From a virus: a stretch of 36,405 nt of DNA. Shown one piece after another: positions 739 through 26,959 of the stretch. Position 1 is the stretch's first letter. Each line of letters begins with the position of its first letter. Where the stretch lies: UHGV virus genome UHGV-0210252; one strand, written 5' to 3'. The translations under genes and the position numbers were made by a program. Below the pieces are notes generated by a model. The model had not been told where the DNA came from and did no database searches. It saw nothing but the letters and a program-made list of their open reading frames with translations.

Positions 739-2502
739 CTAGTGAAACGTAACGTAGGACCCTAGCCCCAGCTCGTCGTCCGTATCGTGAGTCACCCGGA
801 CCCCATTGTCCCAGAACTCAGTGTGGATGGACTCGAAGCCTTTCCGTGGGTTCTCCATCTGTTCCTCCAGCCACTCCTCAGTGACTTCACGTTCGCCTTT
901 GTTGGCATCCTTAGCCATAGACTCAACGAAGAACTGTACACCGATAGCCAGAGCATCAAGTCGGTCATCGTGTGACAAGGCCCCACGTTCACGAGAGATA
1001 CGCGTCATCTGGTAGAAGAGAGAGTAGATAGGGTTACGAACGCCATCCTTATCAGAGGCTGTCTGGTAGTCTTGGACGATAGCAGCAGCGTTAACGATAA
1101 GTCGGTGAGACCCCATGATAGGCTCCAGAACGTCACAGATGCGGAGTTCTTTCTGAACCTTACTCTTTACTTCAGTTACAGCAGCAGGGTGAATACGGGC
1201 CGCTACGGGCTTGAATAGCTCAAGGTACATACCATCGCCGAAGTTGCCCTCAATGACGTATTCGTTGACCTTCCACTTACGACCAATCTTAGCCAGTGCT
1301 TCCAGCGTAGAGTCTTCATAACCTCCACGCATACCACCAACTTCCATAGCGAAGATGTAGCCGTTGAGCTGATACAGTACCGCATAACCAGTTTCATCCT
1401 TACCTCGACCACTAGGGTCAATGACCAGAATCTTCTGGGTGTACGAGCTGAAGGCAGAACCTACAGTCTGATACGTGTGGTATGAGTCACCCATGAGTCC
1501 AACGTTAGGAACGTCCTCACGCTTGTTCTGAGGGTTTGGCAACCATTGGTAGACCATTGGGCTGGACTCTGGGTCCAAGTCCGCTACGATAAGGTCACGG
1601 AGCTTCAGAGGGTACTTCTCGGCATCACTAAGGTTCGGGTTAAGCATGAACTGCAGAGCGAAGCCAGCTTTACCATAGGACAGTTCACGTTCCTTCAGGT
1701 CCGTATCATCGAATCGTACTTCATCGGTAGGACGCCAGTAGAAGGACTCAGGGTCCTCTTCCAGTTCTGCCTGAAGCATAGGAGCCAGACGGTCTCCGTA
1801 AGACTGCCAGTCCTTCCTGTCGCGTGGATAACGAGCTGGCCAGATAGTAGTGGTGTACCCACGGCCTTCCAGCTCACGATACAGGGTCATCTCGTTCTGA
1901 GGAGTACCCAGATAGATGATTGTACCTCCCGGCTTCAGGATAGCGTCGAACTCTTTAACAAGCTCTGACAGACGGTCTCGTGCAGCCTGAGTCGCTGAGT
2001 TGTTCGGAACCTCCACGTCATCGGCAATCAGGATGTCAGCACGACTACCAGTCAACTGACCAGTGATACCAACGGACTTAACCGAAGGTGAGTGGTCTGG
2101 CTTGGCTGGTCCAACGTCGAAGCTGATAACCGCATCTCGCTGACCCTGCTTAGGTTTGAGTTCCTGAAGCTGAGGCATGAGGTCGATGATTCGCTTGATG
2201 AAGATGGAGTTAGCATCGGCTCGCTCCTTTGAGGCCGACACAATCATGAACTTCAAGTCTGGGTTGTTCCATAGCTTCCAGACAACGAAGGCACACGTAA
2301 TGAAGGACTTACCTATACCACGGAACGCCTGTAAGATGAAGCGCCTGTTGTCCCCAGCCGATAGTTTCTTCGCCATGTCAATCTGACAGCGAGTCGGGAC
2401 TGGGAGTGACAGAGCTTTCCATAGGACGAACAGGAAGAACACGAAGTCTTCCTTCATGCGTGTGGTCATTAGCGCCTGACGAGCCACTAAGTCTTTACTC
2501 AA
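739..2502 (-). CDS. Terminase large subunit (T7 gp19, DNA maturase B)
   Basis: 587 aa; strong recalled similarity to T7 gp19 over whole length ([41 protein letters not shown]). Confidence 0.95.
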
Positions 2503-19333: not shown

Positions 19334-20898
19334 GCTTGAGCCATGTCCTCACCAGCTCCCTGACCTACAGCAGCACCCATGTTAGCACCAGCAGCACTAG
19401 CACCTTGGACAACTGCCTGTTGAGACGACTGCTCAGCCATGCGCTGAATCTTCTCGTCTTGCGTCAGGAGTAGACCAGCGGTGTCGATACCCAGAGCGTT
19501 CAGGAGTCGCAGCTTAAGGGTCGGCAAGTTGATGTCCGGGTCCTGAGATAGCGGCTGAAGACCAGTCATCATGTTAACAGCCTGAGTTAGCTTCTCCAAG
19601 TCCTGACCACGACCTAACGCTTCTAGACCAGTGGATACCGTAGGCTCTACCGCTTCTTTCGGAAGGTCTGGAATCATGCCAGCAGACTGAAGCTGGTTCA
19701 TCAGCACACGGACTATAGGTAACTGAAGCTCTTGTGACTGTACCGAGTACACTCCACCTAAGGTCGCCTCCAGTTCTCCAGCAACATAACGAATCTCTTC
19801 AGCAGTGACTCGCTCGGCATTACGCTGAACAGCACTATTGAGAAGGAAGGCCCAGCCTAAACGTTGCTCGATAGCGTCAGCCACCGACTTGGCAATCGTA
19901 AAGTCCTGACCTTTCGTCAGTTGCAGGAAGTTGATGTCCTCGACGCGACCAGCCACGAACTCACCTGTAGCCGCCGTGTTCAGACGACGAGGTTGCGTGA
20001 TACCATTCGGGTTAACGAGGCCCACCACCTTGGAGGCTACCTTAGCCATTTTGGTGATAGCTTCTGTAATCGTCTCCAGCGAGTTCAGGTCCCCAAGATA
20101 CTCCTCGCAATAAGAACGACCATAGTCTTCACCGTCCAGTCGAACCATTCGTACCGGGATGTATGGACATGCAGTCAGTGGGTAGGAACCCTCGGTCCCT
20201 GCTACCTCAATGCCTTCCACTTCTTCATAGCGCAAATACTCGTCGTCCTGACGGTAGATGTGCGTATATACTTCCAGCTCTGTGTCAGGATCATAGTCGT
20301 CTGCGTTGAGTTGTGACTTCACGTCTTCCGGTAGAGCACTAAACGCTACCTTGTCGAGAGTCACAATCTGCAAGATGTTACCGAACGCATCACGTTGAAC
20401 AACGTAAGACACTAAGCGGTACATTCTCATGGGACTGTAGGTCCCCTGTTCAGGCTCTGGAATGTAGAGCAGACAGTTACCGGAGACGATAAGCTGCTTA
20501 AGAGCCTCAAACAATGGGACACGGAAACTGTTAGTCTCCATGTAGGCCATCAACACACGCTCGACCATAGCCAGCCCTTCGTCAACACGAGCAGCCGCCT
20601 CTGAGTCCTGACTCAAGGTCTTAGCCTCATATTCGGAGACTGTTAGTCGCATCCACGGTGATTGAGGGAATAGCGCCAACATCAGCTTTGCAGCCAAGTT
20701 GTTCAAGCAGCGAGCACCTACAGCTTGCCACGGAGTGGTGTACTCAGTAGATGAGTTGTCGGACTCCTTAGGAAACAGTGACGGGATAGTGACAGCAGCA
20801 CAGTTCTGAGCGCGTGTCTCATATGGCTGTCTACCGTTCTTCAGTCTATCATAAACTGCCTTCGCGCCTTCAGCAGCAAATCCTTCACGTTCAGCCAT
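19330..20898 (-). CDS. Head-to-tail connector / portal protein (T7 gp8)
   Basis: 522 aa; strong similarity to T7 gp8 (YETRAQNCA, TPWQAVGAR, YRLVSYVVQRDAFGN, RVTAEEIRYVA). Confidence 0.95.
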   Translation of the reverse strand: MAEREGFAAEGAKAVYDRLKNGRQPYETRAQNCAAVTIPSLFPKESDNSSTEYTTPWQAVGARCLNNLAAKLMLALFPQSPWMRLTVSEYEAKTLSQDSEAAARVDEGLAMVERVLMAYMETNSFRVPLFEALKQLIVSGNCLLYIPEPEQGTYSPMRMYRLVSYVVQRDAFGNILQIVTLDKVAFSALPEDVKSQLNADDYDPDTELEVYTHIYRQDDEYLRYEEVEGIEVAGTEGSYPLTACPYIPVRMVRLDGEDYGRSYCEEYLGDLNSLETITEAITKMAKVASKVVGLVNPNGITQPRRLNTAATGEFVAGRVEDINFLQLTKGQDFTIAKSVADAIEQRLGWAFLLNSAVQRNAERVTAEEIRYVAGELEATLGGVYSVQSQELQLPIVRVLMNQLQSAGMIPDLPKEAVEPTVSTGLEALGRGQDLEKLTQAVNMMTGLQPLSQDPDINLPTLKLRLLNALGIDTAGLLLTQDEKIQRMAEQSSQQAVVQGASAAGANMGAAVGQGAGEDMAQA

Positions 20899-21301
20899 CT
20901 ACGTGCCTCCATGTTTTACCTGTTAATACGTCAGACAGCGTTCTCCTAGCTACTCCCGGATATGCAGAGGTAAGCTCTGTCGCTGTTAGCCCTGACTTTC
21001 GTATGGACTTAACATCTTCGGCTGTTAGCTTTGAGTTGTAATGGCTGTCACTATGTGGAGCGTTCTTTCTACCTTTTGAAACACAGTCTACCATGTTATC
21101 GCTATAAGTACCAACGCTCAGGTGTTCTGGATTGACGCATAGTCTATTGTCGCAGGAATGCATCACCACTAGACCTTCCGGTATGGGACCTTTGTGTTTT
21201 AGGTAGGACACTACATGCGCTCCCCGCAGCTTACCTGCATACCACTTCAGGCCATATCCAGCATTATTTACGCAGCCCTTATGCAGTATGCAGTCTGTCA
21301 T
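20891..21301 (-). CDS. Free-standing HNH homing endonuclease (gene 7.7 position)
   Basis: 136 aa with HSCDNRLCVNPEHL HNH motif; lies between genes 7.3 and 8. Confidence 0.8.
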   Translation of the reverse strand: MTDCILHKGCVNNAGYGLKWYAGKLRGAHVVSYLKHKGPIPEGLVVMHSCDNRLCVNPEHLSVGTYSDNMVDCVSKGRKNAPHSDSHYNSKLTAEDVKSIRKSGLTATELTSAYPGVARRTLSDVLTGKTWRHVDG

Positions 21302-24029: not shown

Positions 24030-24190
24030 TAGCTTTCTCCTTCTTCTTCTTCGTTATGTTCTTTCAGAAGTTCACGAACGTCGCGGCTGCATGCGCCATT
24101 GAGGTTTGGACAATAACGAGACTCCTCTTGTCCACACCACCAAGCTGAACGCATAAGGTCTTTTACCTCCTGTTCGGTGTAAGTCTTCAT
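24029..24190 (-). CDS. Small Cys-containing protein (53 aa), hand-translated
   Basis: MKTYTEQEVKDLMRSAWWCGQEESRYCPNLNGACSRDVRELLKEHNEEEEGES; stop TAA overlaps gp5.5 ATG (TAATG), start ATG overlaps stop of polymerase exon 2 (TGATG). Confidence 0.4.
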   Translation of the reverse strand: MKTYTEQEVKDLMRSAWWCGQEESRYCPNLNGACSRDVRELLKEHNEEEEGES

Positions 24191-24345
24191 CAATGACACT
24201 CCTTCCACGTTGGTCCAATCTTACCTTCGGTATCAAGGACACATTTAAAGTTATAGAACTCACCCACCTTACGCATAGCAAGCTGAGCAATTTCGACTGT
24301 ACGTTCTGCTATTTCTTGAGTACGACAAGCAATCTGTAACTCATC
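24190..24345 (-). CDS. DNA polymerase (gp5) 3' exon, encoding the C-terminal 51 aa
   Basis: Hand-translated DELQIACRTQEIAERTVEIAQLAMRKVGEFYNFKCVLDTEGKIGPTWKECH aligns with T7 gp5 C-terminus DEIQVGCRTEEIAQVVIETAQEAMRWVGDHWNFRCLLDTEGKMGPNWAICH. Confidence 0.75.
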   Translation of the reverse strand, partial: DELQIACRTQEIAERTVEIAQLAMRKVGEFYNFKCVLDTEGKIGPTWKECH

Positions 24346-24943
24346 CTTTCTGTATTCTCCCATTACTGGAAGTGTCGGACTATATCATCAGTCTTTGAGG
24401 TGACTGTCTGGCGCTTCGGGTTACGTGGGAATCTCACCCACGGCCCTACTCCTTTCGGATAGTCTCTACGCCTTCCACTCTCTAATCCACCCACAGGCGG
24501 CTGAGAACGACACATTGAATACTTCGGCTAACTTCGTTCCAGTACACCCAGTCTCTACCCAGTAGTCTCGTGCTTCTAGCTTCCTAGCAGCGTATCGCTC
24601 TTGGTTGGTCTTGACTAAGTGTGAGTCCCGGTCTAATACTTGTAGATGTTCGACGTTGCAACAAGCTCTATTACGACACTTGTGGTCTACTTCGAAACCT
24701 TCAGGTATTGGACCGTTAGCTTTAATCCATACAGTTCTATGATACATCTCAAGGACACCGTTAGTCCTCTTTCGGAAGTATCCATCCTGATTCAATTTAT
24801 GTGACGTAGGGATTATGCAGCCAGTCTCAGTGGCCTCAAGAATTAACTTCTTGCCTCTCATACATCCTCCCTATGGCTTGGCTCGGTATTGTCCCATTAG
24901 GAGTTCACCGAGTTCACCAGATTTAATGTGCACCATGATGTTA
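24346..24943 (-). mobile_element. Putative group I intron (598 nt) in the DNA polymerase gene, carrying an HNH homing-endonuclease ORF
   Basis: Separates WVH from DELQ in the polymerase; candidate P1 (exon GUGCAU with intron GUGCAC, U.G at splice site), terminal G before the 3' exon, R-like GUAGAGACUA and S-like GAUAUAGUCC elements, CGUGGG/CCCACG hairpin between them. Confidence 0.7.
24466..24861 (-). CDS. Intron-encoded HNH homing endonuclease
   Basis: 131 aa with VDHKCRNRACCNVEHL HNH motif; own RBS (AGGGAGGA) and ATG inside the insert. Confidence 0.8.
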   Translation of the reverse strand: MRGKKLILEATETGCIIPTSHKLNQDGYFRKRTNGVLEMYHRTVWIKANGPIPEGFEVDHKCRNRACCNVEHLQVLDRDSHLVKTNQERYAARKLEARDYWVETGCTGTKLAEVFNVSFSAACGWIREWKA

Positions 24944-26959
24944 ATGCACCCATGCCATGTACGCGAAGTCTCCTTCCCAGCCGTGGACATACCCGGCTTC
25001 TTCGAGCATACGCTCTGTCTCGACAATCCAGTGCTTACAGACCACCGCACCATCCCCCTGAAGCAAGGCGTTAAGTGCTGAGTGTGGCGACCGGATGTGA
25101 ATACGGCGACCATCCAGACCTTTCAGCCAGCGACGTTTCCACTTCACGATGTTCTCACCGTCTACCCACTTGGACTCGGAGATGAGAGTGTTTTGCACAG
25201 CTTCCCTGAGGTCCTTGATGGCTGGTGTACCCTCAATGAATTTCTTCATTAGGGCCGCACCTTCCTTCTTGCCACCGCCAACTATCAGTCCAATCTTAGC
25301 GGCCCCTGCACCATACAGGAACGCATAGATGAACGTCTTAGCGTTATTACGGAAAGCATCGTGGTCGTGGCTAGACTTGTCGCGTGGGACGTTAGGTGCT
25401 AACCCAGCGTTGACTGCGTTGGCCCAGTGGATGTCACCTTCGACCACAGTCTTCGCATAGTCGCCACCATCAAACGGAGCCGCTCGGTTCCCCAGACAAC
25501 GAAGCTCAAGACCTGAAGCATCCACACCTACTTGAATCCAAGGGTCTGGCTTACCGTCCTTCTTGTTCCACGCTGCACCGAAAGCACCACGGCAAGTCTC
25601 ACCATATGGAGCACCGTTAGCCGGGACCTGAGCCATGTTTGGTGAACTATGAGTTGCACGTCCGGTTACTGCACCGCATGGGTTGATTGAACCGTGCATA
25701 CGTCCGTCTGGGCCTACAAGTTTCAACCATGCGTTCTTACCTTCAGCCGCCTGACCGATGCGCTTCTGGACGACCAGATACTCACGGACCAGCTCTACGC
25801 AAGCCTGAGCCTCTGCGTCTGGTAACTTAACGTGCTCTAACGTCTCGTCATCGACTACAGGTTTCCCGGTGTCAGTGAAGTCCACAGGCTCCCAGCCACG
25901 CTCAATCACGACTTTCGCTAAGTGGTCTCCGCTCCCAGGATTAAACTCAACGTAAGTGATAGGTGTGAACGGTGCTCCCTCCCCCGTGTCTCGTGAGTCG
26001 AACTCGCAAGGCTCCAGACCTAAGCGTTGAGCTTTGTTCTTCGGCTTCTTGAATACCGACCCGACCTTAGGATACACGACTCGTGGATACTTCGGAAGGT
26101 CCTTGCCTGTCCGTGGATGCCTGAAGAACTCCTTGCCACCCTTCGGTGCATACCAGCTACCGAAAGTCGAACGCAGCTTGTCCAGCAGCTCTGCACGTTT
26201 GACGGTGAGTTCACGATATAAGCCTTCGACCATCTCGGTGTTCATCGGATAGCCGTTACGTTCCATCTTCGCACAGGTCCACGCAGCATCATGTTCCAGA
26301 CGCAACGCATAAATCTGGTCGAAAGCGAACTGTTCAGACTGGAAGTAATACTTGTCAGTCAGGAACTTCTTGAACAACGCCAGTGTGACCACAACGTCTT
26401 GAACGTTATAGTCCAGCATCTCCTGAGACGGGAACAACCATTCGTCCCCAGCCTTATATTCGATACCTTCGGCCTTGCATTTGGTAACGTAATCGTGTTT
26501 GTACTCACCTTTCATTTCACCGAGACGATAGCCCCAAGCCTCAAGAGACTGACGGCCCATCATCTGAGGTGGCAGACGTCCAGCTTTAACCGCGCCCATG
26601 TCTGAGAACTTAATGTTTGGATACATCAAGCGCCCCAGCACCAAGGTATCAATCATCTTGTGTTTCGGGAAGTTAAAGCGTTTCCCAAAGTACAAACGCT
26701 TCAGCTTGTCTATAGCCGGGACGTCATAGTTGATACCGTTATGGAAGACCAGCATACCCGTAGGCGTTGCGGCAATTTCTTCCACCTTCTGTACATACTC
26801 TTTGAAGCCACCGACGATACCGACCATCGGCGCTACCCCATACTTAAGGGTCTCATTCGACTCGGCATTAATCAGGACCCCACAATGGAACTGGGACACG
26901 GTGTCAAGGAGACCGTTTGTCTCGATGTCCGAACCCCAAATATCCTTAAGGTCAAACAT
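24944..26959 (-). CDS. DNA polymerase (T7 gp5) 5' exon
   Basis: 672-aa ORF with strong T7 gp5 similarity (FHCGV, HNG.NYDVPA, VQDVVVT, GSWYAPKGG, INPCGAVTGRATH, DASGLELRC, AKTFIYAFLYGAG, FAYMAWVH); last codon of the track ORF (TAA 24941-24943) assigned to the intron. Confidence 0.95.

What the first reader, a model, noticed from the sequence alone, without database searches (positions are those of the whole stretch)
24190..24960. DNA polymerase gene split by a probable group I intron carrying an HNH homing endonuclease
The 672-aa polymerase ORF ends ...FAYMAWVH followed by TAA (24941-24943), whereas T7 gp5 continues WVH-DEIQVGCRTEEIA... The matching continuation (DELQIACRTQEIAERTVEIAQLAMRKVGEFYNFKCVLDTEGKIGPTWKECH) is encoded 598 nt downstream on the same strand (24345..24190). 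The insert contains an ORF with its own RBS and an HNH motif (VDHKCRNRACCNVEHL). Read on the minus strand, the insert shows group I hallmarks: 5' exon ends GUGCAU and GUGCAC lies about 10 nt into the insert (candidate P1 with U.G at the splice site); the insert ends in G before GAUGAG; R-like GUAGAGACUA and S-like GAUAUAGUCC elements flank a CGUGGG/CCCACG hairpin (candidate P7/P8). Precise excision would restore a 723-aa T7-like polymerase. Group I introns with HNH ORFs have been reported in DNA polymerase genes of some T7-like phages, so the class is known; whether this insertion and endonuclease are already described cannot be judged without a search.
Basis: partly seen in the sequence, partly recalled or inferred. 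Interest (0 to 1): 0.8.

Follow-up and report, generated by a model that had tools for sequence, protein, structure and literature searches.

The report
Known intron in K1F-type polymerase gene

Summary
A 598-nt insert (24943..24346, minus strand) splits a T7-type DNA polymerase gene between the codons matching T7 His653 and Asp654. Joining the exons gives a 723-aa protein that aligns end to end with T7 gp5 (E 5e-269).

The insert is a group IA2 intron. Rfam RF00028 aligns over its full length (35.7 bits, E 2.5e-7; below the cut-off of 50 because about 400 nt of ORF sit in P6a). Two relatives pass the cut-off (61 and 58.9 bits). My P1-P10 model holds across 12 homologues: 97% of cells are paired, 31 of 59 pairs carry compensatory changes, and 0 of 500 shuffles match this.

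The 131-aa ORF is an HNH_3 endonuclease, about 48% identical to T3 gp5.3. Related Kayfunaviruses have a clean empty site.

It is not new. The intron is 99.5% identical to that of phage K1F, whose GenBank record already joins the polymerase CDS across it. Splicing of the PhiI/W31 introns at this site was reported in 2004. Splicing and homing in this phage are inferred, not shown.

The parts
24944..26959 (-). DNA polymerase (gene 5) exon 1, 672 codons, ending ...AWVH. The last 6 nt, GUGCAU (24949..24944), are the 5' strand of P1.
   Evidence: Pfam DNA_pol_A, E 2e-26.
24346..24943 (-). Group IA2 intron, 598 nt. It begins with UAA, an in-frame stop directly after the 5' splice site, and ends with the terminal G at 24346.
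   Evidence: RF00028 full-length match, 35.7 bits, E 2.5e-7. Covariation. 99.5% identical to the K1F intron.
24928..24938 (-). Internal guide sequence. GUGCAC (24933..24928) pairs with the exon 1 end to form P1, with U.G at the splice site. UCAU (24938..24935) pairs with AUGA of exon 2 (24344..24341) to form P10.
   Evidence: In P1, 3 of 6 pairs show compensatory changes. For P10, the count on A1 found no pair changed on both sides. By eye, the next position 5' of these pairs tracks the GAG/GAA wobble base of the first Glu codon (13a CUCAU/AUGAG; SU7 and PT2 UUCAU/AUGAA).
24873..24921 (-). 5' half of the ribozyme core: P3 5' strand (24921..24915), P4 (24912..24907 with 24887..24882), P5 (24902..24900 with 24894..24892), P6 5' strand (24881..24880) and P6a 5' strand (24876..24873). 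There is no P2.
24466..24861 (-). HNH homing endonuclease gene, 131 aa, inserted in the P6a loop. The Shine-Dalgarno GGGAGG is at 24871..24866. The last codons (E-W-K-A-stop) also encode the 3' strands of P6a (24478..24475) and P6 (24472..24471), and the stop codon UAG (24468..24466) lies within the R element.
   Evidence: Pfam HNH_3, E 7e-16. About 48% identical to T3 gp5.3. All 3 differences from K1F are synonymous.
24346..24478 (-). 3' half of the ribozyme core: P6a/P6 3' strands, R element and P7 5' strand (24469..24460), P7.1 (24459..24450), GUA linker (24449..24447), P7.2 (24446..24418), P3 3' strand (24413..24407), P8 (24406..24389), S element and P7 3' strand (24386..24377), P9 (24372..24357), terminal G (24346).
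24190..24345 (-). DNA polymerase exon 2, 51 codons plus stop. It starts with the catalytic Asp-Glu (aligned to T7 D654-E655) and runs to the C-terminal His.

Best explanation
This is a mobile group I intron of subgroup IA2 inside gene 5 (DNA polymerase) of a K1F-like Kayfunavirus.

How it most likely works:
- The gene is transcribed as one pre-mRNA.
- The intron RNA folds into the P1-P10 ribozyme.
- An external guanosine attacks after the U of ...GUGCAU, which is held in P1 by a U.G pair with the guide sequence.
- The freed exon 1 end then attacks after the terminal G (24346). P10 aligns exon 2 for this step.
- The ligated mRNA encodes a 723-aa polymerase with its motif C His-Asp-Glu restored.

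The 131-aa HNH protein is encoded in the P6a loop. It is translated from its own ribosome-binding site. It is expected to cut intron-less gene 5 alleles of co-infecting relatives near this codon, so that repair copies the intron in (homing).

Shown here: the anatomy, the conserved and covarying ribozyme fold, the restored reading frame, the HNH domain, and the presence/absence polymorphism. Inferred from the published PhiI/W31/T3 work: actual splicing and actual homing in this phage.
For: - **Rfam match.** RF00028 aligns over model positions 1-253 to 24953..24356(-) with E 2.5e-7. All 12 fetched homologues give full-length matches. Two exceed the gathering score of 50: MQM1 at 61 bits and the ORF-less Arash intron at 58.9 bits.
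- **Covariation.** The hand-drawn P1-P10 structure on alignment A1 gives 97.2% of cells paired, against 35-47% when partners are slid. 31 of 59 pairs change on both sides, against 3-10 when slid. 0 of 500 shuffles reach any measure.
- **Thermodynamic fold.** The minimum-energy fold of the ORF-less core recovers P1, P3-P6a, P7.1, P7.2, P8 and P9, with z = -3.49.
- **Restored protein.** The ligated 723-aa protein aligns without a break to T7 DNA polymerase residues 4-704 (E 5e-269), and the junction falls at T7 H653|D654.
- **Empty sites.** Intron-less Kayfunavirus alleles match the ligated junction in a single piece at 92-93% identity. Peacock reads GTT CAC|GAT GAG. ST31, the closest genome overall, matches only from exon 2 onward.
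- **Endonuclease.** HNH_3 domain, E 7e-16. About 48% identical to T3 gp5.3.
- **Prior annotation.** The K1F record joins the polymerase CDS across an intron that is 99.5% identical.
- **Literature.** The PhiI/W31 introns are IA2, sit at Pol I site 881, and carry an HNH gene in P6a. P7.1 and P7.2 linked by G-U-A mark subgroup IA2 (PMC3428280). A group I intron in the K1F polymerase gene is mentioned in PMC4925675.
Against: - The window copy scores 35.7 bits, below Rfam's curated threshold of 50, and was not reported in gathering mode. The roughly 400-nt ORF insertion is the likely cause, but the threshold is formally missed.
- P7.1 never varies in the alignment, so covariation says nothing about it.
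- The structure was derived from this sequence, which inflates the percentage-paired measure. It does not inflate the compensatory-change counts.
- No RNA or enzyme data exist for this phage.
- The primary papers (Bonocora & Shub 2004 and 2009; Scholl & Merril 2005) were not in the held library. Their content is cited through secondary sources and my own knowledge.
Confidence: 0.95

Rival explanations
1. Gene in pieces. A free-standing HNH gene has split the polymerase gene. The 672-aa N-terminal piece and a roughly 57-aa C-terminal piece (ATG at 24363) are translated separately and assemble without a covalent link.
For: An in-frame ATG at 24363 gives a 57-aa ORF that contains exon 2. One K1F record (AM084414) annotates gp5, gp5.3 and gp5.4 as separate genes. 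Endonuclease-split genes that still function are a known class: Friedrich et al. 2007, listed as reference 8 in PMC10448857.
Against: The flanks of the HNH ORF form a full group I core with strong covariation, which a plain endonuclease insertion would not need. The ATG at 24363 lies in the P9 hairpin loop (AGUAAU), its G being the first base of the P9 3' strand, and has no Shine-Dalgarno upstream. The catalytic Asp (aligned to T7 D654) would be separated from the rest of the active site. The DQ111067 and 13a records join the CDS.
Confidence: 0.03
2. Decayed element. The intron or its endonuclease is no longer active. The ribozyme might splice poorly or need host factors, or the HNH protein might be inactive, leaving the element as an immobile passenger.
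For: No functional data exist for this copy. ORF-less relatives exist (Arash), which shows that endonuclease loss happens in this lineage.
Against: Gene 5 is essential, so splicing must work in a viable phage. Every helix is intact in this copy. The HNH ORF is full length with an intact motif. Its three differences from K1F are all synonymous. The intron is polymorphic among close relatives, which fits recent mobility.
Confidence: 0.02

Closest known systems
Group I intron of Escherichia phage K1F gene 5 (DQ111067 / AM084414), also present in Ro45lw, CLB_P1 and other Kayfunaviruses
   Same: The 598-nt element is 99.5-99.7% identical and sits in the same position. The ribozyme core is identical to K1F's. 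The HNH protein differs from K1F's only by synonymous changes. The K1F and 13a records already join the polymerase CDS across it.
   Different: Three synonymous substitutions. The surrounding genome is only about 95% identical to K1F over 88% of the first 25 kb, so this is a different strain carrying the same intron.
PhiI / W31 DNA polymerase introns encoding I-TslI (Bonocora & Shub 2004, 2009)
   Same: Subgroup IA2, inserted at Pol I position 881 (His|Asp of motif C), with the HNH gene in P6a. They are reported to splice in vivo and in vitro (PMC3428280). The window shows the same site, the same ORF position, and the GUA-linked P7.1/P7.2 pair. From my own knowledge of the 2009 paper, I-TslI-dependent homing was shown and T3 gp5.3 is a free-standing homologue. 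The homology to T3 gp5.3 is confirmed here at about 48% identity.
   Different: The PhiI/W31 sequences (AY769989, AY769990) were not in the searchable collections, so I made no direct comparison. The Teseptimavirus version, represented here by phage 13a, is about 80% identical in DNA and 76-79% in the HNH protein.
Pf-WMP3 cyanophage DNA polymerase intron encoding I-PfoP3I (PMC3428280)
   Same: An IA2 intron lacking P2, in a T7-like family A polymerase gene, with an HNH gene in P6a.
   Different: It is inserted at Pol I site 674, not 881, and belongs to a different HNH subgroup.

Membership tests
Group I intron (Rfam RF00028) | Significant full-length match to the covariance model | tested here: met
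   Model positions 1-253 of 253 are matched, E 2.5e-7, 35.7 bits. This is below the curated gathering score of 50, so nothing is reported in gathering mode, most likely because of the roughly 400-nt ORF in P6a. The homologues MQM1 (61 bits) and ORF-less Arash (58.9 bits) pass the threshold.
Group I intron (Rfam RF00028) | Conserved core helices P3-P9, including the P3/P7 pseudoknot, maintained by compensatory changes | tested here: met
   97.2% of cells are paired and 31 of 59 pairs change on both sides. P3 has 5 of 7 such pairs, P8 4 of 5, and P7 2 of 5. 0 of 500 shuffles reach this, and slid controls give 3-10.
Group I intron (Rfam RF00028) | U at the end of the 5' exon forming U.G in P1, and a terminal G at the 3' end of the intron | tested here: met
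   The sequence shows GUGCAU|...GUGCAC and ...AGAAAG|GAUGAG. The U.G pair is invariant in 12 of 12 sequences.
Group I intron (Rfam RF00028) | Guanosine-dependent self-splicing | not testable with these tools
   Needs an in vitro transcript with GTP, or RT-PCR from infected cells.
Subgroup IA2 | P7.1 and P7.2 between P7 and P3', linked by G-U-A (criterion as stated in PMC3428280) | tested here: met
   UCCGAAAGGA - GUA - GGGCCGUGGG...CCCACGUAACCC at 24459..24418. P7.2 covaries (4 of 6 inner pairs). P7.1 is invariant, so it is uninformative.
T7-group gene 5 intron lineage (PhiI / W31 / K1F / 13a) | Insertion between the His and Asp codons of polymerase motif C (Pol I 881/882; T7 H653|D654) | tested here: met
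   Alignment to the T7 DNA polymerase structure sequence. Site 881 is given for PhiI/W31 in PMC3428280. The same ...H|DE... boundary is seen in 10 of 11 homologues.
T7-group gene 5 intron lineage (PhiI / W31 / K1F / 13a) | Endonuclease ORF located in P6a | tested here: met
   The ORF lies between CCAU (24876..24873) and GUGG (24478..24475). P6 and P6a covary.
T7-group gene 5 intron lineage (PhiI / W31 / K1F / 13a) | Direct sequence similarity to the PhiI/W31 reference introns | not tested
   AY769989 and AY769990 are not in the collections. Similarity was shown instead to K1F (99.5%) and 13a (80%).
HNH homing endonuclease (I-TslI / T3 gp5.3 type) | HNH catalytic domain | tested here: met
   Pfam HNH_3, 58 bits against a cut-off of 24.8.
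HNH homing endonuclease (I-TslI / T3 gp5.3 type) | Homology to the characterised family members | tested here: met
   48.4% identity to T3 gene 5.3 over residues 6-94. I-TslI itself was not available for comparison.
HNH homing endonuclease (I-TslI / T3 gp5.3 type) | Cleavage of the intron-less allele and homing | not testable with these tools
   Only indirect support: a clean presence/absence polymorphism among close relatives.

The most novel reading that the evidence does not exclude
The window's intron is not new, but the comparison set hints at something broader. One ribozyme-plus-HNH lineage sits at the identical His|Asp-Glu codon boundary of family A polymerases in very different phages: Studiervirinae, other Autographiviridae of Edwardsiella (plus a similar, unclassified Klebsiella phage), Gordonclarkvirinae, the Grimontviridae Vibrio phage Vp_R1, and Aeromonas phage MQM1. 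A close ORF-less relative in the 181-kb Salmonella phage Arash has been retargeted to polymerase motif B with a matching new guide sequence. If no systematic account of this spread and retargeting exists, it would be a modest addition to how intron cores and endonucleases travel together and apart.
Probability: 0.3. Interest if true: 0.3.

Novelty: already known. Interest (0 to 1): 0.08.

Why it matters
There is little new biology here. The practical value is for annotation. Automated pipelines often call this locus as a truncated polymerase, an HNH gene and a small hypothetical or 'DNA polymerase' fragment. Several GenBank relatives are annotated that way. The correct annotation is a single spliced gene 5. 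The locus is also a clean natural example of a ribozyme whose P6a/P6 strands and R element double as the last codons and stop codon of its endonuclease gene.

Tried and rejected
- Rfam at gathering thresholds found nothing in the window. The E-value mode was needed.
- Four attempts to read the three primary papers failed because none is held (Bonocora & Shub 2004 and 2009; Scholl & Merril 2005, tried by DOI and by PMC id). I used secondary sources instead.
- The large protein database search on the HNH protein returned more than 168 related clusters but almost no names, and none for I-TslI. It did not help link the protein to the characterised enzyme.
- PMC4837284 matched 'intron' only as a company name.
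- I considered an intein and rejected it. The insert begins with an in-frame stop codon and has its own ribosome-binding site and reading frame.
- I considered the 50-aa ORF 24363..24515, annotated 'unknown' in K1F, and the 57-aa ORF starting at 24363. I rejected both as real genes because they lie over the ribozyme core (P7-P9).

Full report
**Observation**

- The 672-aa polymerase ORF (24941..26959) ends ...FAYMAWVH and is followed directly by TAA.
- The matching continuation DELQIACRT...KECH is at 24345..24190.
- The gap is exactly 598 nt (24943..24346).
- A 131-aa ORF (24466..24861) lies inside it, with a GGGAGG ribosome-binding site and the motif VDHKCRNRACCNVEHL. Pfam calls it HNH_3 (E 7e-16) and calls the large ORF DNA_pol_A.
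- Joining the exons gives an open 723-codon frame.

**Is it a group I intron?**

Rfam at curated thresholds reports nothing in the window. In E-value mode, RF00028 aligns over its whole length (positions 1-253) to 24953..24356(-) at 35.7 bits, E 2.5e-7. The ORF is treated as one long insertion.

A distant DNA search found the element in 62 phage records, from 99.7% down to about 66% identity. I fetched twelve loci. All twelve give full-length RF00028 matches. Two exceed the gathering score of 50: Aeromonas phage MQM1 at 61 bits, and a 270-nt ORF-less version in Salmonella phage Arash at 58.9 bits.

I drew a P1-P10 structure by hand and removed the ORF from each homologue. I aligned the cores as alignment A1 and counted the pairs.
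- 97.2% of cells form standard pairs, against 35-47% when the 3' partners are slid by 1-3 columns.
- 31 of 59 pairs show changes on both sides, against 3-10 when slid.
- 0 of 500 shuffles reach any observed measure.
- P3 (5 of 7 pairs), P8 (4 of 5), P7.2 (4 of 6 inner pairs), P6a (3 of 4), P1 (3 of 6) and P7 (2 of 5) all carry compensatory changes.
- P7.1 is invariant and so is uninformative.

Because the structure was derived from this sequence, the percentage-paired figure is biased upward. The compensatory-change counts are not.

The minimum-energy fold of the ORF-less core recovers every non-pseudoknotted helix on its own, with z = -3.49.

P7.1 and P7.2, joined by GUA between P7 and P3', mark subgroup IA2. 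That criterion is stated in PMC3428280. There is no P2.

P8 is CAGUC...GACUG.

**Where the ORF sits**

The HNH gene occupies the P6a loop. Its last codons (E-W-K-A-stop) also supply the 3' strands of P6a and P6, and the stop codon UAG lies within the R element.

**The protein side**

The ligated 723-aa product aligns without a break to T7 DNA polymerase residues 4-704 (E 5e-269). Counting along that alignment puts the junction between T7 His653 and Asp654. From established knowledge of T7 DNA polymerase, Asp654 is one of the two catalytic aspartates. PMC3428280 gives Pol I site 881 for the PhiI and W31 introns, which is the same His|Asp boundary. Ten of the eleven other homologues sit at the same ...H|DE... 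boundary.

**Mobility signals**

- About 180 phage records match the ligated junction. Intron-less Kayfunaviruses match it in one piece at 92-93% identity, while intron carriers match in two pieces about 950 bp apart.
- Phage Peacock shows a clean empty site...TGG GTT CAC|GAT GAG....
- The closest genome overall, ST31 (94.8%), matches only from the first base of exon 2 onward. K1F (94.7%) carries the intron.
- The HNH protein is about 48% identical to T3 gene 5.3. From my own knowledge of Bonocora & Shub 2009, T3 gene 5.3 is the free-standing homologue of the intronic endonuclease I-TslI. PMC10448857 refers to this T3/T7-like arrangement as collaborative homing.
- The window's intron differs from K1F's at three positions, all synonymous in the HNH ORF.

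**Comparison with what is known**

The K1F GenBank record DQ111067 and the 13a record EU734174 both annotate gene 5 as a two-piece join across this element. PMC4925675 mentions a putative group I intron within the K1F DNA polymerase gene that encodes a homing endonuclease. Self-splicing of the equivalent PhiI/W31 introns is attributed to Bonocora & Shub 2004 in PMC3428280. I could not open the primary papers.

**Rivals**

- *Gene in pieces.* This reading is suggested by the in-frame ATG at 24363 and by the AM084414 annotation. It does not explain why the flanks of the HNH gene keep a complete, covarying ribozyme. That ATG also lies in the P9 hairpin and has no ribosome-binding site.
- *Decayed element.* This is unlikely because gene 5 is essential, all helices and the HNH motif are intact, and the intron is polymorphic among near relatives.
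- *Intein.* This is excluded by the in-frame stop at the first intron codon.

**Verdict**

Splicing and homing in this particular phage are inferred from homology, not shown here.

Noticed in passing
window 20891..21301 (-): A second, free-standing HNH_3 endonuclease gene (136 aa, Pfam E 1.6e-13) sits just upstream of the probable portal gene, in the T7 gene 7.7 position. It is 34% identical to the intronic HNH. It is present in ST31, GA2A, Pipis, Penshu1 and Ro45lw, but only 8 of 212 matching records carry the whole 1-kb region, so it is variably present.
   Followed up: partly
L011 (Salmonella phage Arash, OQ632216) about 860..1131: An ORF-less relative of the same ribozyme (RF00028, 58.9 bits). 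It sits in polymerase motif B (...AKSVTF|GLLYGAT...) rather than motif C, with a re-matched P1 guide and compensatory P7 changes (GACUA/UAGUC becomes GGUCA/UGAUC). Its long P6a hairpin still contains a Shine-Dalgarno sequence plus ATG, which may be a remnant of a lost endonuclease gene. GenBank annotates the two exons as separate 'polymerase nu' and 'polymerase theta' genes.
   Followed up: partly
L004-L010 (AhaP_PT2, Vp_R1, MQM1, SU7, PE006, DT115P1, RCIP0053): Homologous intron-plus-HNH units sit at the same His|Asp-Glu boundary in family A polymerases of unrelated phage groups. Most records annotate the exons as separate genes or hypothetical proteins rather than a spliced CDS.
   Followed up: partly
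window 24363..24515 (-) and 24190..24363 (-): Two small ORFs that relatives annotate as genes ('unknown' in K1F DQ111067; gp5.4 in AM084414) overlap the ribozyme core (P7-P9) or are simply exon 2 with an intronic ATG. They are most likely annotation artefacts.
   Followed up: yes
window 24944..24949 compared with L013 (Peacock) empty site: Intron-bearing alleles read GTG CAT at the exon 1 end, which supplies the P1 strand and the obligatory U. The intron-less Peacock allele reads GTT CAC. This synonymous difference at the junction could reflect co-conversion, the needs of splicing, or resistance of the target site to the endonuclease.
   Followed up: no
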